Shown here: positions 1 through 19,424 of the stretch, piece by piece | Position numbering within the stretch: position 1 is the stretch's first letter | Layout of the letters: every line of letters starts with the position of its first letter | Notes under the pieces: generated by a model | Database searches by the model: none | What the model saw: the letters and a program-made list of their open reading frames with translations, nothing else | Told to the model about the DNA's origin: nothing | Sequence record: SRR20825019_3094 | Length of the DNA stretch: 20,000 bases | Direction: 5' to 3' (one strand) | Program-made: the position numbers and the translations under genes

Positions 1-189
1 TCGCTCAGAACAGGCATTCTGTTCATCCCGGGCTGGGGATGGGTTGACTTCCCACTAACTGAAAGTGTGATAAAACCCGAGTCCATATCAACTCCTACTG
101 CACCATGCCAGAGTAGTCCTGGTCATCTTGTAGTTGCAACCATCTCTTTTAAATATCGCGATCATTGGCGTGCGTCAGTATTGCATCCA

Positions 190-1117
190 GTAGCGCCGGC
201 ACAGTTGGCATCCTCGGCCGGCGAAGCTCTGCTGAGCGCGGGTCGGAATCCGGGTCCAGCAAGCACACAGCAACGGCTTATCCACCAAGCTGAAAGAGTA
301 GAGGTGCTGGTCGGCTCCTCAGGGTTGAGTGGGCCTCGAGGTCCCACTCTCGCCTCACTGAGTCTCGGTCTGCGCGCAGGCGCGGCCAGGGCGCGGCGGT
401 GCTAATCCCGTGGCTTGGTGGCCGGGCCCCCCGGGTGGCGGCCCCAACGCCAGGGCGGACTGGGGACCGGGACAGTCCATCCGGCCGCGCACCACGACCG
501 CAAGCGCGACTCATCATCACTCACCAGGACTGGAGACAGGTTTGAATTCCCTGAAGGCACATACATAATGTACAAATGTCAACCGAAGATGTCTTTTGGC
601 GAGTGTGTATGAGAAACCATGCGGATCCTTACGGTTGTTCGTGGAAGCAGCGCATCGCGTCCGATACGACTCACGGCGTGCTCCGACCCCGGCGAGCAGG
701 GAGAAGCATTGTTGGGAGTGGTGACGACGTCTCTTGGGGGCGCCATCATGATGACCGTGCGCCGCCCCCCTCCCCTCTATCCGGCACCCCGTCGTCCCAT
801 CTCCGGGGGCCGTCAGTGGTCTCGTCACACTCAGTCTGACCAACAGGGGGGCGCGACGCGGACCGGGGGCCCGAAGTGTGGCCCGGTCGTGGGCAAGCGC
901 AGTCATGGCGGACGTCGCTTGCGTGTTGAGTGCCCTCTCGGGCTGGGTTGTTGGGTTGCCATGTTGGGTGGGGCCTGCAGGAATGCGGGCGGCGGTCGGG
1001 CCTGCCAGCCATGGGTGCCTGCGCGCTCCAGCCTGTGATCGCTGCTCTGTGATCGCTACCCCAAGCTAACTTACAAGTATTAGGACAAATACAACGAGAA
1101 AGTTTCGTACACATACA
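190..1117. promoter_or_regulatory. GC/CpG-rich upstream region of iPGM (probably a second divergent promoter)
   Basis: There is no credible ORF here. GC-rich blocks (~190-540 and ~620-1060) flank a more AT-rich core (~541-620), the same layout as 4911-5821. Confidence 0.45.
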
Positions 1118-2962: not shown

Positions 2963-4910
2963 TCACAATAGCGCTGCTCGCGAAATACAAACCATATGTA
3001 CATTCCTTTCGTCTCTTAGACTTGCATGTATGGAAGGAGCGACACGTTGCCATTGTAGCTTTGTGCTGTATCGTTCCGAGTTCAACAGCTCGAAGAACTT
3101 ACGTTCATGACCACGTATCTTGAATGTTAGGATGGCTACGCACTTGGAGCCGCCATTTCCGACAATCAAGTCTTGAAGAGTCTGAAGGAGAGCGGGGTAA
3201 ACCTCTGGAGCGTATAAGAGGTCGGCTCCTAAGACCACATCCGCCCTCACGCCCTGAGAAGATGAGCATCCCCACTCAAGTGCCTGTGTTGAAACCTGCC
3301 CGCACAGGCCGTTCTTGACAATGTTTTGTCTTGCCAAATCAAGTATTGTTGGGCCATCTGGCAGTTCCAGCTCCAAATCTGTAAGCAGCACGCTCGAAGC
3401 ACCATGTAGCGATGCCGAGAGGCCCGCTAACCCTGGACCACAGCCAAGTTCCAGAACCCTCTTTTGACTTATGGCAATGTCCCCAAGCGAATCGATTCCA
3501 GTCCTGATGGATCCACTCTCCATTGTTTCAGTCAAAACTTCTGCTGCCTCCCATATAACCGCCCCAACATTCACCGGTTCAAATTCTACGCCTTGTTTCA
3601 GACACAAATATCTGGTTCCTACCCTGAATACTCTTTCTCGCCACATCCTGGTCTCCTTCGCCGGATATCCGCGGATTTTCAGATCTCTTTCATTTCCGTA
3701 CATGCCACTTTGAACTATCTCACGGGCAACGTTCAACCATTCAAGATCATCCTCCGCCAACTTCCAATACTTTGCTTCAGTAGAGAAGGCGCATTCATGC
3801 CTTCAGTCAATGTTAGCTACGGAAATAGAGGCCGATGCCGCAAATATGAATACCTGTGTATAAAATGTCTGCAAATCATGTGCAAAGCAGGGACCTTAGT
3901 TGTAATAGAAGTCCTGTCGATGTAGTCATGGACGGGTTGACTCCAATGTTCAAGTACTGGAGGTGCACTGGCCAAGCTACGAAGTATTGACACGTCACGA
4001 CCATACATTAGATGCAACTCTGCCAAAGACATTCTATTGACACCTTGCTCAGCCATCTTCATATTCATTTTGTGGGGAATGTACATACATGGCAATTACA
4101 TCAGGAAATCCACGAGCTTCCCGGTCCATCGAGAAGGAAAGGCCTTCAGAAACTAGGCGAAGGTGCCCCGGTGCTTTAGAGGCTCGGCTCCACGCAAGTA
4201 CACTGTGCACGAAGTATTCATGTGCAGTTGTACCGGATGCCGGTAAGCATGAAGTTGAATATCTAGCCATGCCCTGGAGCACCTTCCACATCGAAACATT
4301 GGAGAAAACAGTGTCTCCTACCCAACACTTGGAAATGTACTCTCCCCATGAAGTCGTCCATTCCCTCATGATGCATTGCTCCTCGGCGCAAAGTGCAGGT
4401 ACCGCGCCATCATTTTCCTCAAAGAACCCATTATCAGCCGCCATACATGGCAAGCTACCCTCGTCGTCCATCTGCTCAAGACACCCATACGAAAAGCACT
4501 GAAGGCTTTGCCGGTTGTCACAACTCGACAAATCAGAACCTATACGAGCACAGTGGATTTCCACAAGCTGCCTTGTCAGTTTCAAAAGGAGTTCTTTCCT
4601 ATGTCCTCGAGTTTCAGGCGAGCCCAGGAATTTTTCTCTGCACTGAGCACACCCAAGCATGGTTCGATTCAAAACCTGTTTCAACACTTTCTCCGCTTGG
4701 AAACCATCAGGAGGCCCTGACGGCAAGCCACCATTGACTTCCCGTGGTCGCTTTCCACACAGCCTGTCTTTAACAATATGTTACACTCTCAGGAGTTCTA
4801 AGCAGAATATCAACAAGGCTACCTTGCAAACTCTTGGGCAAGGAAATTACCAGGATGTCATCATCTTGCCGCCTTTGAGTTGTCCTCGCAAGCGAAGTGC
4901 ATGAGTCCAT
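2963..4910 (-). CDS. Class I SAM-dependent protein (lysine) methyltransferase, METTL21/EEF2KMT-like (Methyltransf_16), with long uncharacterised N-terminal region; 4 exons, ~594 aa
   Basis: The C-terminal exon has VGAVIWEAAEVL, motif I VLELGCGPGLAGL, post-I VLLTDL, QALEWG and motif II DVVLGADLLY (DxxY type). The track ORFs 4049-4726, 3817-4095 and 2963-3760 join in frame through introns 4088-4034 (55 nt, GTATGT...GCTGAG...TAG) and 3853-3801 (53 nt, GTATTC...GCTAAC...AAG). The first exon 4910-4823 and intron 4822-4768 (55 nt, GTAGCC...GTAAC...AAG) are less certain. Confidence 0.8.
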
Positions 4911-5821
4911 ACTGACCTTTCTTCAATAGTAGAACTTAGTTAAACTTGTCCGTTGTTGCTTGAAGAACTCTGAAGCAGGCCGCCAATGCTCCGCATTCGG
5001 CTCACTGACGAGCCGGTAGCGCCTCGAGGCGGAGTCGACGGCGGGCACACTGGCATTCTGAACGGCCGCGACCCGCTGCGCTGCCAGGCAAAGCGGCCTG
5101 AGCCGAGTGCCGCAGGGCTGGAGTTAGCTTGACGAGCGGCCGGGCCCGGCCGGCGGCCCGCCGGGTCGCCCGTGGTTTGGTCCAGGGTGTCAATGGTCCA
5201 TACATGATAGTTGATCACCTTTCACATCCTCACATTCGGCCAGCCGTCACAGTCAGATAACGGTGAATCAAAACTCCGACTAAACTCCAAATATATACGG
5301 GAATACTATTCAAGATATTGCGGTTTATATTGGGGTTTCGATGCGATCGATGGCTGACGTCCCGACAGTACGACTGCCTTCTCGATTCGAGCCCGCCCGG
5401 TCGCCGTGACCTGACCCCGCGACTCCTCGATCCGGAGGGCCGGTGGTGGCCCCGATCGGCGTGCGGGTGCCCCCCCGCTCGCCCGCTGCCGCTGCCCGCC
5501 GGGCCCTGCGTGTGTGAAGTCGACCAATGATCACGCCAAAAACCCCCTCGGAGTCATTCCAGGGCCAAACCAATTGGTCTGACTCCGTGGGGCCGCACAC
5601 AAGCCACCTTCGAATACGGGTTGCGACGGGAGACCGCGGGGCTCCCCAACCTGACAGGTGAGCCCCGAACGGGCCGAGCGCCTCGCACATTCGCTCTGGT
5701 CAACCCTATCCAATATCCCAAGCCTGGCACTACACCCGCTACATGTTTTTCCGCATAGCTTGAAATATGGCAAGAACCACTATTTGCTTTCTTTGGTGGT
5801 ACAAGGCTGAGCAGGGCTGCC
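4911..5821. promoter_or_regulatory. Divergent promoter region between the methyltransferase and multi-bromodomain genes
   Basis: The genes are head to head. GC/CpG-rich blocks (~4975-5190 and ~5340-5700) flank an AT-rich core (~5265-5340) that carries TATATA (+, 5292-5297) and TATAAA (-, 5329-5324). Confidence 0.6.
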
Positions 5822-8800
5822 ATGGATGGCCCATTTGCCTGGCTAAGGTTGGGTCTACCAAGTCGTGCTCAATATGCTCCTCAGCTGTTCGACGAGGTGT
5901 ATTATCTGAAGCATGCTCATCTTCAGCAAATTAACCGATTCAATGACAACCCCAAAGATGCCCACGAAGAGGATGTGGTTGAGTGCATTGTTGTTGACAT
6001 CAAGTATGTAAAGGAAGGGGACGACAGTCATGTCCATTGCAAAGTTCGACTCTTGCCTGTGAGGGGTGGATCCACTTTCGCGGTGCGATATCACGACAGT
6101 GACACCGAATTCCTTGTTTTGAAGAAGGCTTATGAACGAGCTTTGTCTATGGATTTGGCTGTGGGAGTTCCCGTTCAGATGTTTTGGGCTGATGCAGAAG
6201 AGGGGAAGGGCAACTTTTACCTTGGTAAACTGACCGAAGTTAAAGAGAACTGGAAGGTGGAAATGTGTAATGCGGTGAAAGTACTATGGGACGGTCCGGA
6301 CGGAGAGGAAACTGAGGCAAGCCCATGGGAGCTTTTCCCTCCGGGTGAATCCCTCTCCCCACTGGATCCCAGCGATGATCCGGCAGTTTTGGCGGCATGT
6401 GATAAAGTGGCTAGGTGGATTAGCAAGGACTTGAAGCAGAAAGCGAAGAAGTTTGAGATCTTCATCCAGGATCCAGCAGCACAGTTAGCAGGCTTTGTAG
6501 ACGTTGTTCCAAGACCAATGTATTTGGACTTAGTCTATCGAAGGTGCAAGTCAATCTTTTATCGTCACCCTGAAGCTCTTCGGCGAGATTTGGAAAGTAT
6601 TGCGAAGGGAAGTGCAGAATTCAACAAGAGATCAGGACAACCAGAGTTTGTGAAGATTGCCGATCAGTTTGGTGCAGCGGTGTCCACACTAATGAACTCA
6701 GTCTCGGATCAACTTTTTGACGAGACTAGAGCTCTTGCAACTGAGGCCCCCACTCTTGTTGACAAGTTGGGACTCGCTGAGGGAGGGAGCCTTTTCATGC
6801 AGCCTGTCAACTTAGAAGAGCATCCGAACTACACTGAGGTTATTGAAAATCCAATGGACTTGGCCACTGTCAGCGCACTGTTGATGCGAAAAAAGTATCG
6901 GACATTAGATTCTCTCTACAGTGACCTGCGCTTGATATATAACAATGCTCTCACTTACAATGCAGTTGGTACCGGAGTCTATAGATATGCCGAGAAAGGC
7001 CTTGCGAAGCTGGAGCGTGACATTGCGAAGCTGGACGCCAAGGTAATTGGTCGTGGGGCATCCCTCCGGACTCCAAGGGCTCCGCGACCTTCCTTAGTTA
7101 TGAAGTTGAAGCCGCCTTCATCCGAACGAGAAAGTACTGATGATACTGCCGAAGCACCTGAGAGTTCGAAAGGAAAGCCTGGACGACCACCAAAGCCTCG
7201 AGATGAGGAGTCCCCTGCACCAAAGAAGCCAGGCAGGCCGCCGAAGACACCGATAACTCCTAACAGTGACAATGAATCTGCGGTGTCATCGAAAAAAGGG
7301 AAAACATTGCTTAAAATCAGAGCGACTAGCCGAGCAAACGTCGTGCCGGCAGGGTCAGAGTCACAAGTTAACATTCAAATATACCGCAAAATCTTGGACC
7401 AACTGAACATTACCGATGATAAGAAGTGGTTTGCATCACCTGTTGACGTGATTGGATTGAAGCTTAAGGACTACTATGATATTATCAAGGTTCCCATGGA
7501 TCTTGGCACGGTGAAGGTATGTCTTATTGCAAGAGTATTGGTAACGACCCGCCGCTAATGTGAAGCAACCAGGACCGGTTGGAGAAGGGTGTCTATAAAT
7601 CCAACGAAGCCGTTGATTCGGATATCCGTCTGACCTTTGGGAATGCCATGAAGTATAATTCATCGCAGAATGCAGTCCACATCAAAGCAAAGGAGCTGCT
7701 AGAATCATTTGAGTTAATGAGGTCGAAACTGGTCGGTTCTGGCGTCAAGGCCGAAGAGGAACCTATGGCGGAACCAACCACTCCGGCTAGTGCAAGGCGT
7801 AGTTCTATTTCGGTTTCTGCGTCGAGCAGGGAGGACAGTTGGTATGAGCACTGCAGGAATATTCTTAATACCTTGTCGAGACACCCGCGGTCAAAGAATT
7901 TCAAAGTGCCTGTGACGGACGAGATTGCTCCCAACTACTCACAAACAATCAAAGAGCCCATGGACCTCGGCACGCTGAGAGAAATGTTAGAAAGCAGAAA
8001 CATAGGTTCAAAGGAAGAGTTTCATCGGCTGGCCACTCTCATCTTCACAAACTGCATCGCATATAATGGAAGGCATGCACCAATCGCTGATGATGCCAAC
8101 CGTCTCTTTGAGATTTTCAACAAGAATTACCGCGCTAAGTTTGGCGCTGGTGATCAGAGCGATGCTGGAAGTGCTTCTAATGTAACACAGGAGACACGTG
8201 GAACTGGCTTTGTGGCTCAAGGGAGTTCTTCTGGACCTAGGGAGACTCCGCCTAAAGCTAAAGACTGGAGAGCAGTGTGTCACACAATTATTGAAGAGAT
8301 GATGCGAGACAGAAACATGGAAATGTTCTGGAAGACTGACCCGGAACGTGATGGGCTTGTCAACTATCGAGAGGTCGTTACTAGGCCGATGGACTTGGAG
8401 ACAGTCCAGAAGCATCTGAAAAAGAAAATCAAGTCAATGGATGAGTTTGTGGAGAAGGTCCTTCTTATATTTGAAAATGCTTTCACCTATCACGGCACAG
8501 CGTCGCAGATCGGCCGTTTGGCCAATGAATGTTTGCTTGTGTTCTATCGTCTAGCGGATGAAATGTCTGTGTCGCATCGCAAGGTGAACGTCTCCGGTTT
8601 TCCTAAGACTCAAGCTTCTATGGCTGCCTCATCTACCCAGGGGCCTTCTCCGGATGTGCGCGGACAGGATTGGCGCAAGGTAGCACTGAAGATTATTGAC
8701 CGCCTCTTTCGTGATGAGGAGTGCAGGGCCACTTTCTCGGCCCCGGTTGACGCTGAAGCTTTGGGTATTCCTCATTATCGGACCATGATCCAGAGACCTA

Positions 8801-11800
8801 TGGACCTCGGTACCATCAAGACTCGGCTTCAGTCCAAGGGTGAGATTGCTTCACCCTCCGAGTTTATTGAGTTGGTCAACCTGACCTTCCAGAATTGCAT
8901 TACATTCAACGGCCTGTCCTCACCCTACGGAAACATGGCTACAAGGCTGCAAGGTGTCTTTAGTACTTTGTTGTCTGACTTGGGTTTCTCGTTTGCTGAT
9001 CAGGAATCTTCGATGGTATCCAAGATTTCTGCTCCAAGAACACCGGCTCCTACGGCGGCTCCCACGCCATCGAGCGGGAAGGGGCGGAAGAAGAGTGATT
9101 GGTTTCACAAGGCTTCGAGCATTCTCTCGAAGTTGCAACAAGAGCAACATGCAGAATTTTTTAATGAACCGGTGGACCCAGTCAAGATGGGTATTCCTGA
9201 TTATTTCAATGTGATATCTAACCCGATGGACTTGGGTACTGTCGCGAGGAAACTGGCCGCCAAGGATTATTCTCTGCCACAAGAGTTTAAGGCGGACATT
9301 TTGCTTGTGTTCGAGAATGCAACGACATACAATTCTCCGGAATCGTTGGTGCACAACGCGGCGAATAGCTTGAAGAAAAAGTTCTTTCGAGCCTACGATG
9401 ATGACGATATGGCCTCACGAGTAGCTGTGAATTCTAGTGAAGCACCTGTGACCCCGGCACAGAAGCCTCCGAAGGCAACATTTGTTCTGAAAGGGCCAAG
9501 AACACCTGCAACCGCTACAGCGAAAGCCGCTGTTACCCCGACTTGGAAAGCTGCTGCCCTTGATGTCCTTCAGAAGCTGAAGAAAAAGGAGAACCACCAC
9601 TTCTTTGCCAATCCTGTAAACCCAGAACTAGATGGGGCGCCCGACTACTTTGAGAGAATAGAGACGCCTATGAGCTTAAGTGAGGTGGAAAAGAGACTTA
9701 TGGAAGGGACTATTAAGTCTGCCGATGAATTCACGACGTGGGTGTCCTTAGTTTTTGACAATGCTGTTCAGTATAATGGTCCTAATCACCTTGTCGGATC
9801 GGCTGCTTTAAAGTTGAAGGGAGATTTCACCAAGCTATTCAAGCAGCGTCTGTCAGAAGCTACTGCGTTCCCTTCTACTCCGCCTGCCGCGCTCGAACGA
9901 AAGCAGTCGACTGGCTTGTCGGTCTCGTCCTTGAAGAAGGAAAAGCCACCCCTTGCCCAGTCATCCAACGAATGGGTCCGGCATGCTAAGGGTATGATTG
10001 CACAATTCTTAAAGAAGGAGAAGGATGGGCACTGGTTTTCTCGACCTGTGGATCCTGTCAAGGACGGAGTCCCCGAGTACTTCAGTGTTATCACGGAACC
10101 CATGGATCTGGGCACCATCGACGCGATGCTGAAGAAGGGAGAAATTAGTGGTCATGAAGAGTTTGCACGCTTGGTCCGTCTCACATTTGAAAACTGCATC
10201 AAGTTTAATACACTCAATGATTATGTTGGAAAGACAGCCGATATATATTTGAAGAAGTTCGAGAATATGTATGCTCACTTCGTCCGCAACATGAAAGAAG
10301 GTACCCTAAAAAAGAAGCCCGGGCGACCACCGTTGGAGCCGGGTGCTATGAAAACACCTGGGCGGCCCCGTGGGTTCCCTGAGGCGCCACAAACTGCCCC
10401 GCAAATGCGAGGGCGACCGCGAACTACGGGTTCTTGGCATGCAGGAGCTCGATTGATATTGCAACATTTGAAGGCAAAGGACACTATGTCCATATTCGCG
10501 CAACCTGTAGATCCCGTCGCTCTGAACATCCCAGATTATCCAAATGTTGTAAAGGATCCAATGGATCTTGGTACTGTCGAGTCTTTGGTTGGGTCTGGAA
10601 AATGCGACAACCCTGAAGAATTTGCCCGTCTGATCCGCTTAACCTTTGACAACTGCATTTTGTTCAATGGAGATAACGAGATTGGGCGCTTTGCTGTTGA
10701 CATGAAATCTGACTTTGAGGTTTTATACAAAAAGAAGATTGAAGGGCTTCTTGGTTCGACAATGGCCAAGCCTCCTACTGCTCCCGGTGCAGAATGGATT
10801 GCTGTAGCCAAAGAAATTTTGAAGAAGATCAAGAACGATAAGAAATCTGATGAGTTCCAACGCGATATCAACCAGGTCAAGGCAACCTGTCCGCAATATG
10901 ATGATGTCGTGAAAGAGCCGATGGACTTAGTCATCATTGGGCGCCACCTGAATACTGGGCGAATTAAGGATATGGAGGAGTTCTGTCGCCTGATGAAGCT
11001 GACCTTCCTGAACAGCATTAAGTACCACACCCTGAATGCAGATATCAGCCAAGATGCTGTAGTTTGCTTGATCAAATTCGTAGAAGAAGTTCGAAAGATT
11101 ACTGGCAAGAAAGACAATGATTGGCGAGAGAAGGCTTTTGGTATTCTTCATTTTATGCTTGATATTGACCCTGACGAACACTTCACTGTTGATCCACTTA
11201 CTTTCAATCTTGAGGGCTATGCTGACATGATCAAGGAGCCGATGTCGCTCAGTTGGATTCAACGAGAACTTGCCGATGGGGGCCAAATTCAAGACTCGGA
11301 TGAGTTTAACCGGTGCATGCACTTGGTGTTCATCAATTGCATTACCTACCATGGTCGTGACTCCGACTTTGGAAACCTTGCATATCATATGAAAAGATTC
11401 TATGAGTCGTTGAGGAAGAAAAGAAAGCTAGAGGTTTCGTCGGCGGCTGAAGTCCCCTCAGTAGATCTCGCTGTCAAATCTAGTCTTGGTGATGGGGCAT
11501 CTCCAGGTGCTAAGTGGCTACTTTGCCCTGCGGAAGACAATTGGAAGGAAGGGGCGCGCCGGCTTCTCCTGAAAATTCTCTCCGAGGTCCATGGACCCAT
11601 GTTCTTCTACCATGTTCCAGATTTGATTCCGGAGTACTCCCAGAAGATCAAGGAACCCATGGACTTCTTCACTATCCAGTCAATGTTTGCTTCGGGGTCT
11701 ATTGCATCCCCGGAAGAATTCAAACGACTGGGCAGCCTGTGCTTCGACAATTGTGTGGAATTTAATTCTAACAATGAGGACATCGTAGTCATTGCACGAG

Positions 11801-14469
11801 AGTTCAAGAAACAATTTGACGAACTGTACTCAACGTGGGTACTGCAGCCAGAGTCCTTGGTAAAGCATGAGACTAGTTGGTTGGGGCCCGCACGGAAGAT
11901 TCTTCAGTCTCTATCGCGGCACCCTTGCGCGCACTGGTACAATGTTCCCGTCGATTATGTGCAGCTAGGGCTCACACATTACCCCGTGATGATTAAGAAC
12001 CCTATGGATCTTGGAACGGTGGGTGAGATGGTGAAGAACAAAAGGATTGGGACTCGCGAAGAGTTTGCTTGCCTCGTCCGCTTGGTTTTCACCAATGCCA
12101 TGGTGTTCAACAAGCCTGAACACGATGTATACAAGGTGTCAGATAGTCTTTATCAAAAGTTTAATGAGGCTTTTGAGGAGAAGTTAAGCGCTGCTGCTAT
12201 AGCGCAGAGCAAATTGAACCGGCTGGACGACGAAGGAAGGAAGGAGCAACGCCGTCATAGATCCAATTCGGTCATTAGCATTGAGTGCGAGTTTGATGGT
12301 TGGCAGGACAAGGCTATCGAGATGCTTGACAAGCTTAAAGACAACCAAATCGCTGATGTGTACTCAAAACCTGTGGATACATCGGCACCTAGGATGCACA
12401 ACTACTTGCAAGAGGTTCATGAACCAATGGATCTGGGGCAAATAACAAGCGATTTGCAAGCAGGCTCTATCAGTTCTTACAGTGAATTTAAGCGCCGGGT
12501 GAGGCTAGTGTTTGATAATTCTATTCTCTTCCACGGAATGAATTCAGTGTATGGCACTCTGGCATTTACACTGTTGAACAAATTTGAGGATTTGCATGAG
12601 GAACTGTTGATAGCTCAAGGCTTGAAGAAACCTCCCGAGGATGTTGAAGCCATCCAGAGTCAGAAACAGAGTCAAAAGCGGGGTGCGCGTGTTCGGTTTG
12701 GGCGTGTTATATCGCAGCTGCTTCGGGGCCCTGGCGGTAAACTGTTTGCCATACCGGTTGACCCCGAAAAGCACGGATGCAGTGACTACTTAGAAATTAT
12801 CAAAAAGCCTATGGACTTTGGTACCATTGAGCAAATGGTGGATGACGGAAAGATTGAATCCCAGACCGAGTTCAATGACCTTGTTGAACTAACCCTCACT
12901 AATTGTCTTTTTTACAATGGAGATAGCGAGAATGGGTTGCATATTAGCGAGTATGCCCTGAAGTCGTTCAAAACTTGGGAGGAAACAGATCCCCAGAGGG
13001 CGAACCGCATGTCGAAAATCCGGATGCAATGTGCTGCGCGAATCAAGCGCCGTATGGCTGAACATCAGCGAATGAAACGCGAAGAAGCTGGCCGCGATGT
13101 GGCTGTTGACGATGTTGCCGATGAAGATGACGTTCCCCTGGCCCGGGTTAATCTTGCTTCCAAGGCTAAGGACATATCGAAGAATTTGATGAAAAAGTGT
13201 GCTGAGATTGTATCGTATCTTAACAAGGCGGATCAGAGGCATGGACTCTTGTCGAAGGGGGTGGGCTTGGTTGTCGGGCTACAAGAGATCCAACGACGTC
13301 TTCGCAATCAGTTGTACAGCGTTCACAGCGATTTCGCATTGGATGTGTCCACGCTTTTCCGGGGCGTTCTGGCGGCAGTTCCTAGCAAGAGTAGTATCAT
13401 TATGGAGATGTTCAGTGACTTCAACAAGATGTATCGCCCCATCGTTGAGCAAGATCGTTTGGTCCAGCTGGAAGAGATGACGTTAAGATTAGAAACCAAG
13501 AAGCGCGTCCATGAAGATGAAAAGCCCAAGGTTGACGTCTCGAAAGACGTGGAAAACGTCCTAGCCAAGAAGGACCCCAAGAAGTCCAAGTATAGTGTTC
13601 CCCAAGAAATTGACACAAATCGCTCGAGCAAGTTTTCGATGTCCTTTAAGAAGCGCTCACCCTCACGGTTAGGTGGAAAGGTTTTGGTTGAGCCAAGTCC
13701 AAAGAGGTTGCGTGCGTTTGAGGAAGATGAAGCTGACGACGAGATGGAACTCGACGTTCCTCCTGAGTACATTCGTTGGGAGGAGAAGGCAATTCACTCT
13801 GCAAGAGCGGCGCCCAAGATAGCTCCTGCGTTTGTTGACCCGGTGTCGCTCTTGACAGCCAATGGCGAGAAGAAAGACTCCAGGGTTGTCACTTTTGGTT
13901 TCCCTGTCAAGGTCCCTGAATTCCGTCGCGAGGCATATGCCCTTGCTAAAGGCCATTGGAAGAAGATGTTTGGACCATGCCCAAGCGGGCATCTCCTGTC
14001 CCATGATGTCGACATATTTCGAAAGAAGGACAATGCTGACCTGCTTCCTTGCCAGCTTATGATGTACACTCTTAGGGTGATGTGCCCAGAAGGGAACTGG
14101 AATCGAGGCAAGGTTGCGGTGTCGGTGACGAAGGATGAGTCCTTTGATGACCTGGAAACTAGCCTTGCGAGTCTCCTCAGCGATGTTGAAGAGTTGAAGA
14201 ACTACGATGACGAGGGTGACGAAGCCCTGACAATGATGTATGAACCAGCTCGTGTTAAGTCCATTTTGGACTCGTATTCTGATCTCTTGTCCGAAAATTT
14301 CCATTACCACCCCCAAGGCTTCTATCTTTCAACGAAGACAGAGCACCGGGGTGGACTGACTTTCCTAACTTTGAAAGTGCTCGGCCTGGAGGGAACCCTC
14401 TCGGTAAGCTATGACGAGTGGACAGTACCCTTAGTTGGACCTGTGCAGTCGTGTATTCCGTCCCGCTAA
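5822..14469 (+). CDS. Giant multi-bromodomain protein with N-terminal PHIP/BRWD-like cryptic Tudor region; 2 exons, ~2863 aa
   Basis: Exons 5822-7516 and 7573-14469 are joined by a 56-nt intron (GTATGT...GCTAAT...CAG) that restores PMDLGTVK|DRLEKGVY inside bromodomain 3. There are 16 repeats of the F..PV...Y...I..PMDL..I...L......F......L.F.N...[YF][NH] bromodomain signature. The N-terminal YAPQLFDEVYY..AH / RYHD..EFLVL / V.WD...SPWEL motifs resemble the BRWD/PHIP region preceding the bromodomains. Confidence 0.93.
6400..13440 (+). repeat. Tandem array of 16 bromodomains plus one degenerate copy (protein-level repeat)
   Basis: The cores in order are PMYLD, PMDLA, PMDLG, PMDLG, PMDLE, PMDLG, PMDLG, PMSLS, PMDLG, PMDLG, PMDLV, PMSLS, PMDFF, PMDLG, PMDLG and PMDFG. 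A degenerate unit (GLQEIQRRLRNQLY..HSDFALDV..LF) lies at about 13190-13435. Confidence 0.9.
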
Positions 14470-14473
14470 GCCT

Positions 14474-14529
14474 AATAAATCCTTGTTGTACTTGAATTGA
14501 AACCATTTGAGTATCATGTCATTTTTATT
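14474..14529. terminator. Pair of opposed AATAAA polyadenylation signals in the 62-nt convergent spacer
   Basis: AATAAA on + at 14474-14479 begins 4 nt after the bromodomain stop. AATAAA on - at 14529-14524 begins 2 nt after the EGF gene stop. Confidence 0.6.
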
Positions 14530-14531
14530 GA

Positions 14532-17500
14532 TTACTTGGCTGCAGTCTCCTTACGGAGGTTGCCAGCAATGAGTGTCCCACAGTTGTCTCCGGTCCATGC
14601 CGAGTCACAGGTGCACTGACCAAAGTGGCAATGGCCATGTCCACTGCAATCGTTTGGACAAAACTCTGAGGCGCAGTCGAGCCCGGCCCAACCATTGAAG
14701 CAACTGCATTCTCCCAGAGTGCAAGTGCCATGCCCCGAGCACGGGTTGTCCTCCCCACCAGGGCACGCTACCTTACCACAATCAGCCCCATAATATCCCT
14801 TAGAGCAATGGCATATTCCATCCACGCAAGTTCCACGACCCGTGCAGCCATGGAGGCAGTTGTGCACCGAACAATCATGGCCGCCAAACCCAGGCTCACA
14901 AACGCATACACCATCCAAGCACTTCCCGCGATTTGAACACTTGTTCATACACACCTCACCTCCACAGTCAGTGCCTGTGAAGCCGGCATAGCACTGACAT
15001 ATTCCGTCTTCAAGACACTTTCCGTGTCCCATGCATCCATGCAAACAAAGGCGCTTCGAGCAATCATCGCCTTCGAAACCTTCGTCGCATTCGCACTCGC
15101 CCGATACGCACGTACCATGTCCCGAACACCTATTCCGGCACAGGTTGACCCGTGTCCAGCAGTCCGCTCCGGTATATCCTACATGGCAATGGCACACTCC
15201 TTCAACGCATTTGCCGTGTCCATGGCAATTACTACGGCAAAGGTCGGACAAGACGCTGCAACTGGCTCCCGTATAGCCACTATGACATTCGCATATGCCA
15301 TCAGTGCAGACACCATGCCCGGAGCAATTCTTCCGACAAAGATCCGCAAGCGTGGCACAGCTAGCCCCAGTGTAACCCTCAACACAATGACAGATTCCAT
15401 TGTGGCAGGCACCATGGCCAGTGCAGTTGTTTCGGCACAAGGATGCTTCCTTCCAACAGTCTGAACCAGTGAATCCGTCTTCACAATAGCAAATACCCCC
15501 AACACATTGACCGTGCCCGCTGCAGTTATTCCGGCATGCGCGTACTTCTGAGAAGCAGTCGGTACCTGTGAACCCGTCCATGCAGTAACAGACGCCTCGG
15601 TCGCACTTTCCATGGCCGTGGCAGTTGTTGCGGCAAAGATTAGCCTCAACAGAGCAGTCAGCGCTAGTGTAGCCGTCCTTGCAATGGCACACACCATTGT
15701 CGCATACACCATTACCAGAGCAGTTGTTGCGACACAGATTGCTGAGCATCATGCAATCCGCTCCAACGTAGCCCTGAATGCAGTGACACACCCCCGCCCG
15801 ACAAAGACCGTGGCCGGAGCAATTGTTTCGACATTCATCTTCAAGCACGGAGCAGTCATCACCCTCAAAGCCGCGGATGCAGTGACACACACCCTGGTTG
15901 CATCGTCCATGCCCACTACAGTCATTCCGGCACAGATTGGCCAAAACCTTGCAGTCGTCACCTTCATACCCGTTGTTACAGTGGCAGACTCCTCGGTAGC
16001 AGTCACCGTGACCACTACAATTGTTGCGGCAGAGGTTGGACATAGTGGCACAGTCATCACCCTGATAACCATCCTTACAGTGGCACACTCCACGGATACA
16101 GTGCCCGTGGCCCGAGCATCCTCGTCGGCACAAATTAACCTGAACTCTGCAATCATCGCCCTCAAACCCAGCGAAGCAATGGCAAACCCGCCCTTGGCAG
16201 AGACCATGCCCTGAACAGTTTGTGCGGCAAAGATCGGCAAGAGTGGCGCAGTCGTCGCCTTCAAACCCTTCTACACAGTGACAGACACCCTCATGGCAAG
16301 CACCATGCCCACTGCAATTGTTGCGGCACAAATCAACCATAACCTCGCAATCATCGCCCTCAAACCCTTCCTCGCAGTGACACACACCATCGACACATGT
16401 TCCGTGATCGGAGCAGTTCTTGCGGCAGAGGTCTGCGCGAATGGCGCAATCATCGCCCTGGAAGCCATCCTCACAATGGCAGACACCGTCAATGCAGTCA
16501 CCGTGTTGGCTGCATTCATTACGGCAGAGATTAACAAGAATCTCGCAATCGTCACCTTCGTAGCCTTCCTCACAATGGCATACTCCAGGATCGACACATT
16601 GCCCGTGACCACTGCAGTTGCCCCGGCACAAGTCGGCAATGGCCCAACAGTCCTCGCCGAAGTAGCCATCATGACAGTGACATACGCTGTCAACACAAGT
16701 GCCGTGACCGTTGCAGTCACTAGGGCAGTCCTTCACTCCACAGTCCGCCCCCGAGAAGCCGCGGAAGCAATGGCAAGTACCTCCAAGATCACAAAAACCA
16801 TTGAAGTAACACTCGTGAGGGCAAGTTTCAAGCTGGCATTGCTGGCCCTTGTATCCTGGGTAGCAATGGCATCTGCCGCGGTAGCAGAATCCCTTCTGGG
16901 AACAGTCGGCAGGGCACGGAATCGGAACCGAGCAGTCGTTGCCTGTGAATCCTTCCTCGCACTCGCACTTTCCGTTGACGCAAACCCCGCGGTAGCTGCA
17001 CGCAGGGGTGCACACTTGATCACTGCATGTGGGGCCGACAAATCCGCGCTCACACTCACAGGACCCCTTGTTGCATTCGCCGTGGCCGGAGCAGTTATTG
17101 CTGCACACCAAACAATCCTCGATGCACACCTTGGTTGCTTTTGGGTCTTCCATGTGATGCAGAGCACACATTGACACGCATGTCTTGTTAGCAATTTCCA
17201 TTCCATGCATCCACGAAAATCCTCCAGGAAGAATGGGCCATTTGTTTGCTCGAGCCGTGCGGACACAGTTCTTACTGCAAAGATCCGCAGCCACGGTGTC
17301 GTGAGGATGAGCCCAGGCACAAGAGAACACGCAAGTGCGCGACTGCACTTGAGATGGAAGCATTTCAACAGCCACAACCTTACCCTTGCCATCTGTGCTT
17401 GGTTGCGATATTACAGTCTGCTGTGTGTCGTAGCAATCAACTCCTCCAAAACCGTCATTACATTTGCACTTTGTGTCACGGCAGAGGCCATTTCCACTAC

Positions 17501-18791
17501 AATCATTCTCACATACTGTGCTGTTACAGGTGTCTCCTCCAAAACCATATTCACAGAAGCATTGTCCCCACATGCACTGCCCATGAGATGAACAGGTGGG
17601 ATCGACGCAAGAGGCTACTTGTGAACAATCAATCCCCCTAAACTCCGGTTTGCAGTGGCACGTTCCTCCCCAGCACGCGCCATTATTGGGACCACTGCAG
17701 TCGTTTGGGCACAGAACGACATCACAGGCGTTGCCAGAATATCCATCGTCACAATGGCACAAACCGTCGCTGACACAAACGCCGTGCCCTCCACAGTTGC
17801 TTGGACACTTCGCCTTTCGGGAACAATCCCTTCCGCCGTATCCTGCCGCGCACAGACACTCGCCATTCTCCCGGCACACACCATTGTTCGAGCAGTCATT
17901 AATGCAAGCAACGGATTCACAGAACGCTCCCCGGAACCCATGTTCGCATATGCACATGCTGTTATGGCACACACCGTGACCAGAGCAGTGTGAACCGCAG
18001 TCACTAGTAATTGGTCGCTCACAGTTAAAACCTCCCCAGCCCTCTACACAAGAGCAGTGGCCTTGCACGCAGCTACCATGCCCGGAGCAACCACCCGAGC
18101 ATTCCAGAAGGGTGCAAGTGGCCCCAGAGTAACCTGGCTGACAAACACAGCCATGAGAAGTGCATGTTCCAAACTCCCCGCACCCCTCCGCAGGGCATGC
18201 ATCTAAAGAGCAGTCCACACCAGCCCAACCAGACTCGCAATCACAGCTGTGAGTCACAGCATTACAGTCACCGTGCCCGCTGCATTCATTAGGACAAAGT
18301 AACAGGTTGCAAAGAGAGCCTGTCCATCCTTGATCGCAGTAACACTGCCCCCCCACACAAATTCCATGGGCCAAACACTCTGTTGGGCACGCAGACCCGG
18401 GCTCTTGAGTTATTGAGTGTGGTGTCGCAACCGGAAGTACGATAGGGGCATCCTCTGTCACAGATTCCGTGGGTGCTATCTCGTGAGGTCTTTCTTCCAT
18501 ATTGGCTATAGAGTTTAGCATGGTTGCCTGACTGTGAACTCGTTCCTTCTTATTCTTCTTTGGTTCTCCGGCCCATCCTTTCTCAAGACCGTGAACAGCT
18601 GCGGTATGCGAGTGTTCCGCCTTCGAAATATGCCGCTTAGAAGGATTGGAGTGCCTCACCAGCGTGGCCTCTGATACGACCAGCTTGGTCATCGACTCCT
18701 CATGACTATTGGTGGACTGACCAATGACGATGAGTGACAACAAAACCAGAATCACCCCGGCCACGCCAGAATAGACTGAAGACGCCGCCAT
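14532..18791 (-). CDS. Secreted tenascin-type EGF-repeat protein (36 EGF-like repeats), intronless, ~1419 aa
   Basis: The first ATG is at 18791 (the track start at 18824 is TTG) and is followed by a signal-peptide-like hydrophobic stretch (GVAGVILVLLSLIVIG). Repeats follow C-x3-C-SGHG-x-C-x4-C-x-C-x2-G[FYW]xGxDC, with 10 in 18389-17433 and 26 in 17105-14580. No C-terminal TM helix, FNIII domain or fibrinogen domain is visible. Confidence 0.93.
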   Translation of the reverse strand: MAASSVYSGVAGVILVLLSLIVIGQSTNSHEESMTKLVVSEATLVRHSNPSKRHISKAEHSHTAAVHGLEKGWAGEPKKNKKERVHSQATMLNSIANMEERPHEIAPTESVTEDAPIVLPVATPHSITQEPGSACPTECLAHGICVGGQCYCDQGWTGSLCNLLLCPNECSGHGDCNAVTHSCDCESGWAGVDCSLDACPAEGCGEFGTCTSHGCVCQPGYSGATCTLLECSGGCSGHGSCVQGHCSCVEGWGGFNCERPITSDCGSHCSGHGVCHNSMCICEHGFRGAFCESVACINDCSNNGVCRENGECLCAAGYGGRDCSRKAKCPSNCGGHGVCVSDGLCHCDDGYSGNACDVVLCPNDCSGPNNGACWGGTCHCKPEFRGIDCSQVASCVDPTCSSHGQCMWGQCFCEYGFGGDTCNSTVCENDCSGNGLCRDTKCKCNDGFGGVDCYDTQQTVISQPSTDGKGKVVAVEMLPSQVQSRTCVFSCAWAHPHDTVAADLCSKNCVRTARANKWPILPGGFSWMHGMEIANKTCVSMCALHHMEDPKATKVCIEDCLVCSNNCSGHGECNKGSCECERGFVGPTCSDQVCTPACSYRGVCVNGKCECEEGFTGNDCSVPIPCPADCSQKGFCYRGRCHCYPGYKGQQCQLETCPHECYFNGFCDLGGTCHCFRGFSGADCGVKDCPSDCNGHGTCVDSVCHCHDGYFGEDCWAIADLCRGNCSGHGQCVDPGVCHCEEGYEGDDCEILVNLCRNECSQHGDCIDGVCHCEDGFQGDDCAIRADLCRKNCSDHGTCVDGVCHCEEGFEGDDCEVMVDLCRNNCSGHGACHEGVCHCVEGFEGDDCATLADLCRTNCSGHGLCQGRVCHCFAGFEGDDCRVQVNLCRRGCSGHGHCIRGVCHCKDGYQGDDCATMSNLCRNNCSGHGDCYRGVCHCNNGYEGDDCKVLANLCRNDCSGHGRCNQGVCHCIRGFEGDDCSVLEDECRNNCSGHGLCRAGVCHCIQGYVGADCMMLSNLCRNNCSGNGVCDNGVCHCKDGYTSADCSVEANLCRNNCHGHGKCDRGVCYCMDGFTGTDCFSEVRACRNNCSGHGQCVGGICYCEDGFTGSDCWKEASLCRNNCTGHGACHNGICHCVEGYTGASCATLADLCRKNCSGHGVCTDGICECHSGYTGASCSVLSDLCRSNCHGHGKCVEGVCHCHVGYTGADCWTRVNLCRNRCSGHGTCVSGECECDEGFEGDDCSKRLCLHGCMGHGKCLEDGICQCYAGFTGTDCGGEVCMNKCSNRGKCLDGVCVCEPGFGGHDCSVHNCLHGCTGRGTCVDGICHCSKGYYGADCGKVACPGGEDNPCSGHGTCTLGECSCFNGWAGLDCASEFCPNDCSGHGHCHFGQCTCDSAWTGDNCGTLIAGNLRKETAAK
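15057..16643 (-). repeat. Homogeneous 99-nt (33-aa) tandem sub-array of 16 EGF units (consensus xxxNLCRNNCSGHGxCxxGVCHCxxGFxGDDCx)
   Basis: 1587 nt = 16 x 33 aa + 1 aa. At DNA level gcagtcgtc/gcaatcatcgccctcaaacc and gcagttgttgcggca recur at ~99-nt spacing on the + strand. Confidence 0.9.
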
Positions 18792-19424
18792 AGCCTTTCG
18801 TACTATCACGTATGAGTTTCTCAACTAGAGAGCGTACCGCATAACCTTCACCCCAGTGGGCTGTGTTGCTCTCTTTCGTCCTGCTGGAGGACATATGGGC
18901 GTGAACCACATATTTGTGCGAAGGAACTAGGGGAAGACTGCTTTTGCCGCCCTCGATATTGGATGAGACCTTCGAGACGAGAAAGAGTTGGTTCATAGGG
19001 CCGTGAAGAACGTAAGATCGACGGTCGAATGTCGAGGCAACGGGCCCTCGTGGCGAAACTGAGCCCACGGCTCGTCGTCGCGTAGGATAAACCGCAAAGG
19101 TGAGACTGACCACTGCCGTGAGCAATGACCACGGGGGCCGAATCGGACACGGCAAGTGTCAGTGGCTCCTAACGTTGGAAGATACGCAAGATTTTGCTAG
19201 AGGGTGGCCTACAAATGCCAGTTATATTTAAGTATCAACCGCTAGATGGTCTATTCTATTTTTAGGACAAATCATTGAAAGGATAAGGATTGAGAGTTTA
19301 TTTTGTTCGTTGGCTCCACACCGGCAAAGCCGCAAGGGGCTAGCAATATGCGAGGAAAGCACCCTGCCCACGACTGAACCAAGCCTGAAGAGGGAAGGAA
19401 AGACTGCCATTGGAACTCAGTATT

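What the first reader, a model, noticed from the sequence alone, without database searches (positions are those of the whole stretch)
5822..14469. A ~2,860-aa protein with 16-17 tandem bromodomains: a candidate multivalent acetyl-chromatin reader
Seen: one spliced ORF encodes 16 clear bromodomains and a degenerate 17th, separated by S/T/P/K-rich linkers. No HAT, ATPase, PHD, BAH or ET domain is recognisable. Established: polybromo/PBRM1 has six bromodomains and BET proteins have two; I know of no characterised protein with this many. Inference: this may be a reader-only scaffold that spans several nucleosomes, senses acetylation density or bridges or condenses acetylated chromatin.
Basis: partly seen in the sequence, partly recalled or inferred. 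Interest (0 to 1): 0.92.

Follow-up and report, generated by a model that had tools for sequence, protein, structure and literature searches.

The report
A sixteen-bromodomain chromatin reader protein
An intact gene of an unidentified eukaryote encodes a 2,863-residue protein with 16 acetyl-lysine-reading bromodomains behind a PHIP/BRWD-type Tudor-like domain, far more than in any studied protein, so it may grip long stretches of acetylated chromatin at once.

Summary
ATG 5822 to TAA 14469, with one 56-nt GT-AG intron (7517-7572), gives a 2,863-aa protein. Pfam finds only bromodomains: 3 + 14 stretches, one split by the intron, so 16. Fifteen are full-length and one (BD01) is atypical. The "17th" is not significant (E 0.22).

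The domains are 23-34% identical to one another and there are no DNA repeats. This is an old array, not an assembly artefact.

- Residues 1-420 are collinear with the crypto-Tudor-BD1-BD2 module of PHIP/BRWD proteins, without their WD40 propeller.
- Five AT-hook-like GRP motifs sit in two linkers.
- A roughly 320-aa C-terminal region has no relatives.

A profile search of 1.84 billion representative proteins found at most 9 bromodomains in one protein. Literature phrase searches found no single protein with more than six.

Best reading: a multivalent reader of acetylated chromatin, derived from PHIP/BRWD and expanded by internal duplication. The function is inferred. A single 8.7-kb mRNA is not shown. 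Verdict: a new variant of a known kind, interest about 0.6.

The parts
5822..7516 (+). Exon 1 (start codon ATG 5822; residues 1-565)
   Evidence: Open frame 5759-7558, ATG at 5822 in gccATGg context. A run contig begins at 5794. No coding-looking + strand frame lies in the 1 kb upstream.
7517..7572 (+). 56-nt GT..AG intron inside bromodomain 3
   Evidence: GTATGT donor and CAG acceptor. Splicing keeps the frame and restores the ungapped bromodomain consensus. Not covered by any run contig.
7573..14469 (+). Exon 2 (residues 566-2863, stop TAA 14467-14469)
   Evidence: Single 2,301-codon open frame.
5831..6355 (+). PHIP/BRWD-type ancillary (crypto-Tudor-like) domain, residues 4-178
   Evidence: phmmer hits 14 of 14 BRWD-named proteins just upstream of their first bromodomain, E 1.4e-7 to 1.6e-3. 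A BRWD-only HMM scores 22.0 bits against at most 7.4 in 2,000 shuffles. Pfam ARF_AD is sub-threshold at E 0.022. Atlas lead BRWD_AD 0.86.
6413..6637 (+). BD01, atypical bromodomain (short ZA loop, Phe for the ZA-loop Tyr, Asn kept); aligns with BRWD BD1
   Evidence: Pfam 30.7 bits against cut-off 21.7. Own profile E 2e-5. Alignment and key residues.
6692..7039 (+). BD02, canonical (Tyr, Asn); aligns with BRWD BD2
7169..7255 (+). Two AT-hook-like motifs (K-P-G-R-P-P-K) in the 105-residue BD02-BD03 linker
   Evidence: Regex search and shuffles. The motif definition is recalled.
7355..7752 (+). BD03 (spans the intron), canonical
7798..8157 (+). BD04, canonical
8227..8586 (+). BD05, His in place of the acetyl-lysine Asn
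8626..9000 (+). BD06, canonical
9064..9423 (+). BD07, canonical
9502..9867 (+). BD08, canonical
9925..10287 (+). BD09, canonical
10309..10428 (+). Three AT-hook-like GRP motifs in and just after the BD09-BD10 linker
10396..10743 (+). BD10, canonical
10765..11109 (+). BD11, His variant
11104..11433 (+). BD12, His variant; abuts BD11 with no linker
11527..11844 (+). BD13, canonical
11860..12204 (+). BD14, canonical
12259..12624 (+). BD15, His variant
12643..13014 (+). BD16, canonical
13279..13362 (+). Possible relic of a 17th bromodomain (helix-B-like stretch); not significant
   Evidence: Own profile E 0.22. Weak BLAST matches of this stretch to helix B of other bromodomains, best E 0.018. Pfam finds nothing.
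13495..14466 (+). C-terminal region, residues 2540-2863, of unknown kind
   Evidence: No Pfam family above cut-off. No homologue among long proteins. No Atlas hit. The AlphaFold model is unusable, mean pLDDT 41.
14474..14479 (+). AATAAA just after the stop; run contigs end at 14491 and 14497

Best explanation
This is one real, intact nuclear gene of a eukaryote. It has two exons and encodes 2,863 aa. The protein is a chromatin reader descended from the PHIP/BRWD lineage.

It keeps that family's chromatin-binding module: a crypto-Tudor-like domain, an atypical BD1 and a BD2. It lacks the WD40 propeller. It carries 14 further bromodomains that arose mostly by old duplications inside the gene.

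Inferred mechanism:
- The 11 canonical domains with Asn and Tyr each bind an acetyl-lysine weakly.
- Joined by short linkers, with a mean repeat of 134 residues, they bind with high avidity only where many acetylated tails lie close together.
- The Tudor-like domain may add a methyl-lysine contact, and the AT-hook-like motifs a DNA contact.
- The protein would then hold to, and perhaps bridge, runs of hyperacetylated nucleosomes.
- The unexplained C-terminal region is the likeliest docking site for a partner.

Shown: the gene structure, the domain count, the PHIP/BRWD-like N-terminus, the conserved pocket residues and the rarity of the architecture. Inferred: all binding, nuclear location, avidity and bridging.
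For: Gene structure:
- The spliced frame is open over 8,592 nt.
- The intron restores the domain consensus.

Domain count and age:
- There are 16 Pfam bromodomains.
- The domains share only 23-34% identity, and the DNA holds no long repeats.

Pocket residues:
- 11 of 15 full domains have the Asn, and 15 of 15 have the ZA-loop Tyr.
- The Asn column aligns with the 'MYN' of yeast Gcn5 in a solved structure.

PHIP/BRWD-like N-terminus:
- Residues 1-420 align collinearly with 14 BRWD proteins at 23-29% identity.
- The Tudor-like part is significant against shuffles, 22.0 bits against at most 7.4.
- It matches 14 of 14 BRWD proteins at the right place.
- In human PHIP this module reads H3K4me, H3K14ac and H4K12ac together on one nucleosome (PMC8653789, abstract and section 8).

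Internal duplication:
- For 10 of the 13 domains BD04-BD16, the best match among 848 outside bromodomains plus the 15 inside ones is an inside one.

DNA contact:
- There are 5 GRP motifs against 0.5 expected, and 0 of 2,000 shuffles reach 5.

Transcription:
- Run contigs at 99% or more identity cover 5794-7105 in four pieces and 11962-14497.
- They stop 12-18 nt after an AATAAA.
- They carry loose ends that look, from recall, like a template-switch oligo and a Nextera adapter. This hints at cDNA.

Precedent:
- Multi-bromodomain proteins such as BRD4 make acetylated chromatin phase-separate in vitro (one passage of the review PMC8621359).
Against: - No binding was tested.
- Four of 15 full domains have His where the acetyl-lysine Asn should be, against 21 of 848 outside domains.
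- BD01 has a shortened ZA loop. Some domains may therefore not read acetyl-lysine.
- The Trp-Trp of the BRWD Tudor-like domain aligns with Phe-Tyr here. In PHIP a Trp (W1081) is needed for H3K4me binding (PMC5710144, one passage). I could not map that residue exactly, so methyl reading is uncertain.
- The defining WD40 propeller of PHIP/BRWD is absent.
- No orthologue was found, so conservation across species cannot be shown.
- The AT-hook reading rests on a recalled motif.
- Both structure models failed, with mean pLDDT 46.6 and 41.1.
Confidence: 0.6

Rival explanations
1. The locus gives several shorter products rather than one 2,863-aa protein. These could come from internal promoters, alternative ends or an unseen splice.
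For: No contig of the two runs lies on 7106-11961 or on the intron. One contig carries a template-switch-like loose end at 13263, which could mark an internal 5' end.
Against: The frame is open for 2,301 codons with no stop. There is no intergenic-looking stretch, and linkers are mostly 5-36 residues. The loose end is as easily explained by reverse transcriptase stopping early on a long RNA. The 5' part (5794-7105) is present in the same run as the 3' part.
Confidence: 0.1
2. It is an expanded orthologue of polybromo (PBRM1, Rsc1/2/4). It would be the acetyl-chromatin targeting subunit of a SWI/SNF-type remodeller.
For: Polybromo-1 is the top solved chain by summed score. Both proteins are chains of bromodomains with no enzyme domain.
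Against: No BAH or HMG family appears in Pfam. The N-terminus is PHIP/BRWD-like. Per domain, the array profile scores BET BD2, Gcn5 and apicomplexan bromodomains at about 97-104 bits. The whole six-domain polybromo scores only 230 bits.
Confidence: 0.1
3. Most domains no longer read acetyl-lysine on histones. The array would be a structural spacer, or would bind non-histone proteins or nucleic acid.
For: There are His variants in 4 of 15 full domains and a truncated BD01. From search listings only, papers report PBRM1 bromodomains associating with RNA and TAF1 BD1 binding DNA.
Against: The Asn is kept in 11 of 15 domains and the Tyr in 15 of 15, despite only 23-34% overall identity. That is the pattern expected if the pocket is under selection.
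Confidence: 0.15
4. It is an assembly or reading artefact, such as a collapsed or expanded repeat or a chimeric contig.
For: Long repeat arrays are a known source of misassembly.
Against: No tandem repeat with a period above 15 nt was found. No direct repeat exceeds 47 nt at 60-77% identity. Run contigs that may not be independent agree at 99% or more over about 3.6 kb.
Confidence: 0.02

Closest known systems
PHIP / BRWD1 / BRWD3 (bromodomain and WD-repeat proteins)
   Same: A crypto-Tudor-like domain is followed directly by two bromodomains, collinear over residues 1-420 at 23-29% identity. It matches 14 of 14 BRWD proteins at that position. The Pfam ARF_AD match is sub-threshold, as reported for PHIPs (PMC11685440, passages). 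The PHIP module is a multivalent nucleosome reader (PMC8653789).
   Different: There is no WD40 propeller, so no CRL4 substrate-receptor part. There are 14 extra bromodomains. BD02 has Asn where the BRWD rows have Thr, the position reported as T1396 in human PHIP. BD01 has a shorter ZA loop. The C-terminal region is unrelated.
Polybromo-1 (PBRM1/BAF180) and yeast RSC bromodomain subunits
   Same: A chain of bromodomains acts as the acetyl-chromatin targeting part, and the domains cooperate (abstracts).
   Different: Polybromo has six domains, not sixteen. It also has BAH and HMG domains, which are absent here. The N-terminus differs.
Unnamed bromodomain-only proteins with 7-9 domains from environmental assemblies (P0067, P0069, P0072, P0081, P0085, P0088, P0203) and Norrisiella sphaerica P0133
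   Same: They are long chains of bromodomains with little else in Pfam. Some are cut at both ends and may be longer.
   Different: They have at most 9 domains. They share only 25-30% identity over the arrays. Neither the N-terminal Tudor-like domain nor the C-terminal region matches. None is characterised.
Mucoromycota TFIID-subunit-like proteins with six C-terminal bromodomains (P0003-P0010)
   Same: They are the best named hits to the array, at E 1e-72 to 1e-94, with six bromodomains each.
   Different: Their bromodomains sit behind a large TFIID-subunit/aminopeptidase-like body (PF25316, PF25577, PF01433), which is absent here.
BET proteins (BRD2/3/4)
   Same: Per domain they are the best-scoring solved bromodomains, about 98-104 bits for BD2. 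Tandem domains scaffold acetylated nucleosomes (abstract of 10.1101/699967; passage in PMC8621359).
   Different: BET proteins have two domains plus an ET domain. No ET domain is found here.

Membership tests
Bromodomain (Pfam PF00439) | Profile match above the curated cut-off | tested here: met
   116.4 and 688.4 bits against cut-off 21.7, with 3 + 14 stretches. BD01 alone scores 30.7 bits.
Bromodomain (Pfam PF00439) | Acetyl-lysine pocket residues: BC-loop Asn and ZA-loop Tyr (roles recalled; the Asn role is also stated in PMC8653789, section 8) | tested here: met
   Asn in 11 of 15 full domains and His in 4. Tyr in 15 of 15. BD01 has Phe and Asn. The Asn column aligns to Gcn5.
Bromodomain (Pfam PF00439) | Binding of acetylated lysine | not testable with these tools
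   Needs peptide or nucleosome binding assays.
PHIP/BRWD | Crypto-Tudor (double Tudor-like) domain directly upstream of the bromodomains | tested here: met
   Sequence level only. 14 of 14 BRWD proteins are hit at that position. The HMM scores 22.0 bits against at most 7.4 in 2,000 shuffles. Collinear alignment. The fold is not confirmed, because the model has pLDDT below 50 over most of residues 1-300.
PHIP/BRWD | One or two bromodomains after the Tudor-like domain | tested here: met
   BD01 and BD02 align with BRWD BD1 and BD2. Fourteen more follow.
PHIP/BRWD | N-terminal WD40 propeller of seven or eight repeats (PMC11685440, passage) | tested here: not met
   No WD40 family in Pfam for the exon-1 frame. 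The Tudor-like domain starts at residue 4. No coding-looking + strand frame lies in 4700-5822.
PHIP/BRWD | Trp of the methyl-lysine site (W1081 in human PHIP; PMC5710144, passage) | tested here: inconclusive
   The Trp-Trp of the BRWD rows aligns with Phe-Tyr here. No PHIP sequence was on hand to map W1081.
Polybromo / RSC bromodomain subunits | BAH domain(s), and an HMG box in animals (recalled) | tested here: not met
   Neither family appears in Pfam at E <= 0.01, or at E <= 10 for the ends.
BET | Two bromodomains plus an ET domain | tested here: not met
   No ET family (PF17035) in Pfam, although it is listed for true BET hits.
AT-hook DNA-binding motif | Gly-Arg-Pro core flanked by basic residues (recalled consensus) | tested here: inconclusive
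   There are 5 GRP cores at residues 454, 471, 1482, 1495 and 1512, all within about four residues of a Lys or Arg. Only two (1495, 1512) have an Arg directly after the core. Expected 0.5, and 0 of 2,000 shuffles reach 5. No profile test and no DNA binding test.

The most novel reading that the evidence does not exclude
This is a natural 'acetyl-chromatin glue'. A single chain of 16 bromodomains, a methyl-lysine Tudor-like domain and AT-hooks would bind only where acetylation is dense. It would then bridge many nucleosomes into a separate compartment. That makes it the natural, extreme counterpart of the multi-bromodomain proteins that drive phase separation of acetylated chromatin in vitro. 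It would have evolved from a PHIP/BRWD ancestor that shed its ubiquitin-ligase adaptor half.
Probability: 0.3. Interest if true: 0.8.

Novelty: new variant of a known kind. Interest (0 to 1): 0.6.

Why it matters
Bromodomains bind acetyl-lysine weakly one at a time, so how cells read the density of acetylation is thought to depend on multivalency. The studied cases stop at two domains (BET, TAF1, PHIP) or six (polybromo).

A natural protein with 16 domains, 11 of them with an intact pocket, gives an extreme test case for avidity, spacing and nucleosome bridging. It also gives a ready-made scaffold to compare with engineered multi-bromodomain constructs.

It shows that the PHIP/BRWD chromatin-binding module can exist without its WD40 half and can serve as the seed of a large array. 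The four His-for-Asn domains offer a natural series for asking what that substitution does.

Tried and rejected
- **Whole genome.** None is held for this window.
- **Earlier notes of the scan.** Nothing relevant by place, words or sequence.
- **RNA runs.** No RNA holder is listed. The two runs are one sample and one study, of unrecorded kind. They gave no contig on 7106-11961 or on the intron, so splicing and a single mRNA are not shown.
- **17th bromodomain.** E 0.22 with my own profile and no Pfam match. I do not count it.
- **C-terminal region.** The only Pfam match is DUF5575 at E 0.021, below its cut-off. No homologue was found among proteins of 1,265-4,027 aa. The Atlas gave no usable hit.
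- **Structure.** Both AlphaFold jobs gave unusable models, mean pLDDT 46.6 for residues 1-420 with 17 rows and 41.1 for residues 2380-2863 alone. I therefore ran no fold search.
- **Solved structures.** Sequence search matched only the bromodomains, not the Tudor-like part.
- **Orthologues.**
  - The word-based search gave no hit above 33% identity with wide coverage.
  - The best array matches in the representative library are 25-30% identical and lack both end regions.
  - The first metagenome scan found no relative.
  - The second, with the N-terminal alignment, gave 80 loci. None holds more than 2 bromodomains in six-frame search, and nearly all match BD02 only.
- **Organism.** A 140-aa piece of the neighbouring phosphoglycerate mutase has best identities of 54-66%, to a glaucophyte, fungi, an amphioxus and unnamed records. 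The organism is not placed.
- **Upstream WD40 exon.** No coding-looking frame was found.
- **Literature.**
  - Searches gave no paper on a single protein with more than six bromodomains.
  - Passages of the chromatin-evolution preprint 10.1101/2021.11.30.470311 do not mention such arrays.
  - Its supplementary tables, which may list architectures, were not available to me.

Full report
**Gene structure**

The + strand holds two long open frames, 5759-7558 and 7564-14469. They translate into bromodomain-rich protein. The first in-frame ATG with a good context is at 5822. Between the frames lies a 56-nt stretch, 7517-7572, that starts GTATGT and ends CAG.

Joining 5822-7516 to 7573-14469 in a script gives 8,592 nt. 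This starts with ATG, ends with TAA and has no internal stop, giving 2,863 aa. The junction falls inside the third bromodomain. After splicing, that domain aligns to its siblings without a gap. The neighbouring phosphoglycerate mutase gene has a similar GT..AG intron of about 52 nt, so such introns are normal in this genome.

Upstream of 5822 there is about 1 kb of G+C-rich DNA with no coding-looking + strand frame. Beyond that lie genes on the other strand. An AATAAA sits at 14474-14479, five bases after the stop.

**Domain count**

Pfam finds only PF00439. There are 3 stretches in the exon-1 frame and 14 in the exon-2 frame. The intron-split domain is counted once in each, so there are 16 domains.

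A profile I built from 15 of them finds those 15 at E 1e-33 to 1e-46. They match it by construction. It finds BD01 at 2e-5 and one further stretch, residues 2468-2495, at E 0.22. BD01 alone passes Pfam's cut-off, 30.7 against 21.7 bits. The "17th" is not significant. It has only weak BLAST echoes of helix B, best E 0.018.

My count is 15 full domains, one atypical domain and one unproven relic.

**Age of the array**

Thirteen of the other domains are 23-34% identical to BD07. Tandem Repeats Finder reports nothing with a period above 15 nt. The longest direct DNA repeats are 26-47 nt motif echoes at 60-77% identity. This rules out a recent amplification or a repeat misassembly.

I compared the domains with 848 bromodomains from all proteins fetched up to that call.
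- For 10 of the 13 domains BD04-BD16, the best match was an internal paralogue.
- BD06 and BD16 had an internal one at ranks 3 and 2.
- BD07 (rank 66), BD02 (rank 210) and BD03 (rank 131) are closer to outside domains.

The outside set was itself selected with a profile of this protein, which makes the test conservative. I read this as an old expansion inside the gene, seeded by a few ancestral domains.

**Pocket residues**

The column that aligns with the Asn of the Gcn5 'MYN' in a solved structure holds Asn in 11 of 15 full domains. It holds His in four: BD05, BD11, BD12 and BD15. The ZA-loop Tyr is present in 15 of 15. BD01 has Phe and Asn. Among the 848 outside domains the same column is Asn in 758 and His in 21.

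That Asn is the acetyl-lysine contact. I know this from recall, and it is also stated in section 8 of PMC8653789.

By profile, the array resembles BET BD2, Gcn5 and apicomplexan bromodomains most closely per domain, at about 97-104 bits. Polybromo-1 leads only by summed score, at 230 bits.

*A PHIP/BRWD-type N-terminus.*
- Residues 1-190, searched with phmmer against the 213 proteins then stored, hit all 14 proteins that their sources name BRWD1 or BRWD3. The E-values are 1.4e-7 to 1.6e-3.
- Each hit lies in the roughly 180 residues just before that protein's first bromodomain.
- An HMM built only from those 14 regions scores the real N-terminus at 22.0 bits. The best of 2,000 shuffles scores 7.4.
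- Pfam gives a sub-threshold ARF_AD match at E 0.022. The Atlas's nearest cluster is BRWD_AD at 0.86, which is a lead only.
- MAFFT aligns residues 1-420 collinearly with the Tudor-like domain, BD1 and BD2 of the BRWD proteins at 23-29% identity.
- Passages of PMC11685440 say three relevant things about PHIP/BRWD proteins. They have an N-terminal WD40 propeller, a crypto-Tudor domain and one or two bromodomains. They are widespread in eukaryotes. Their Auxin_resp match falls below cut-off, as it does here.

The WD40 part is absent from this gene.

*AT-hook-like motifs.* Five Gly-Arg-Pro cores near Lys or Arg sit in the BD02-BD03 linker (residues 454, 471) and around the BD09-BD10 linker (1482, 1495, 1512). 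The expectation is 0.5, and 0 of 2,000 shuffles reach 5. Calling these AT-hook-like rests on a recalled consensus.

*An unexplained C-terminus.* Residues about 2540-2863 have no family, no homologue and no usable model.

**How unusual is it?**

A profile of 14 of the domains was run against 1.84 billion representative proteins. It matched 29,800 proteins at E <= 0.001. Total score grows with the number of domains, and the 150th hit still scored 236 bits. A protein with ten or more recognisable bromodomains should therefore have been listed.

| Source of count | Result |
|---|---|
| Tool, best 150 | most stretches 9 (P0067); 8 in P0069, P0072, P0081 and P0207 |
| My recount, 149 of these | one with 9, three with 8, four with 7, 38 with 6, and the rest with 3-5 |
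| Pfam | P0067 9; P0072, P0069, P0081 8; P0085, P0088, P0203 7; P0207 6; P0133 5 |

Most of these are unnamed records from environmental assemblies. P0133 is from the chlorarachniophyte Norrisiella sphaerica, and P0068 (six domains) is from the chytrid Blyttiomyces helicus. P0069 and P0081 begin and end inside bromodomains, so they may be pieces of longer arrays.

The named best hits of the word-based search are eight Mucoromycota TFIID-subunit-like proteins with six C-terminal bromodomains.

None of these shares the N-terminal or C-terminal regions of the window's protein. Array identity is 25-30%.

Phrase searches of the open literature gave no single protein with more than six bromodomains. 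Judged from the listings alone, the papers that mention seven or eight concern complexes, bromodomain classes or inhibitor panels. Two caveats apply:
- The library holds predicted proteins only.
- Supplementary tables of the surveys were not available to me.

**Expression**

Two runs of one sample and one study, of unrecorded kind, hold contigs at 99% or more identity.
- Four pieces lie on 5794-7105.
- Two overlapping pieces lie on 11962-14497.
- A second-run piece lies on 13263-14491.

The contigs stop 12-18 nt after the AATAAA. Separate, much deeper contigs start at 14509 and 14548 for the convergent neighbour. Two loose ends read like a template-switch oligo and a Nextera adapter, from recall. 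Together these hint that the runs are cDNA.

Nothing covers 7106-11961 or the intron, so a single mRNA is not shown. The one difference seen in both runs inside the gene, 13437 C>G, is synonymous.

**Mechanism**

In human PHIP the Tudor-BD1-BD2 module reads H3K4me, H3K14ac and H4K12ac on one nucleosome, and binding rises when the marks are combined (PMC8653789). Polybromo's six domains cooperate on H3K14ac (abstracts). Multi-bromodomain proteins re-induce phase separation of acetylated chromatin in vitro (PMC8621359, one passage).

By analogy, I think this protein is a high-avidity reader of densely acetylated chromatin. It would have 11-12 competent pockets at a mean spacing of 134 residues, perhaps helped by a methyl-lysine contact and by DNA contacts. 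Its C-terminal region would recruit something unknown. All of this is inference.

The rivals are several shorter products, an expanded polybromo orthologue, a largely non-reading scaffold and an artefact. They are set out with their evidence in their own section.

**Verdict**

The architecture is a new variant of a known kind: a WD40-less PHIP/BRWD-type reader with a record array of 16 bromodomains. Interest is 0.6.

Noticed in passing
window 14532-18824, - strand: A 1,430-residue open frame with a hydrophobic N-terminal stretch carries about 36 tenascin/teneurin-type EGF repeats (Pfam EGF_TEN E 1.6e-255; EGF_Teneurin 36 stretches). It converges on the bromodomain gene, and the two stop codons are about 60 nt apart. 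Its run contigs are far deeper, 132 and 261 against 13 and 92.
   Followed up: partly
window about 1116-2900, + strand: This is a gene for 2,3-bisphosphoglycerate-independent phosphoglycerate mutase, split by short GT-AG introns. A 140-aa piece has best identities of only 54-66% to any protein in the 5.8-billion-cluster collection. The source organism therefore has no close annotated relative there.
   Followed up: partly
window 2963-3802, - strand: An open frame matches Pfam Methyltransf_16, a lysine methyltransferase family, at E 1.6e-23.
   Followed up: no
window 1-1000 and 5000-5700: These are G+C-rich stretches (62% and 59%, against 46-51% in the bromodomain gene) without coding-looking frames. 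The second lies just upstream of the bromodomain gene's start.
   Followed up: no
proteins P0003-P0010 (Mucoromycota): Eight Mucoromycota proteins join a TFIID-subunit/aminopeptidase-like body (PF25316, PF25577, PF01433) to six C-terminal bromodomains. Related proteins of Basidiomycota have three, and one of Calcarisporiella thermophila has two. That the body is TAF2 is my reading, because the source names are cut off in the listing.
   Followed up: partly
window 8227-8586, 10765-11433, 12259-12624 (BD05, BD11, BD12, BD15): His replaces the acetyl-lysine-binding Asn in 4 of the 16 domains here. Among outside bromodomains it does so in 21 of 848. What His does in this pocket is unknown to me.
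   Followed up: partly
window 13437 and 14748: Both runs read G for C at 13437 (synonymous, Arg 2520) and C for G at 14748 in the neighbouring gene. The sequenced cells therefore differ slightly from the assembly.
   Followed up: partly
window 4049-4780, - strand: A 243-residue open frame has no Pfam family (best E 0.43). Whether it is a gene is unknown.
   Followed up: no
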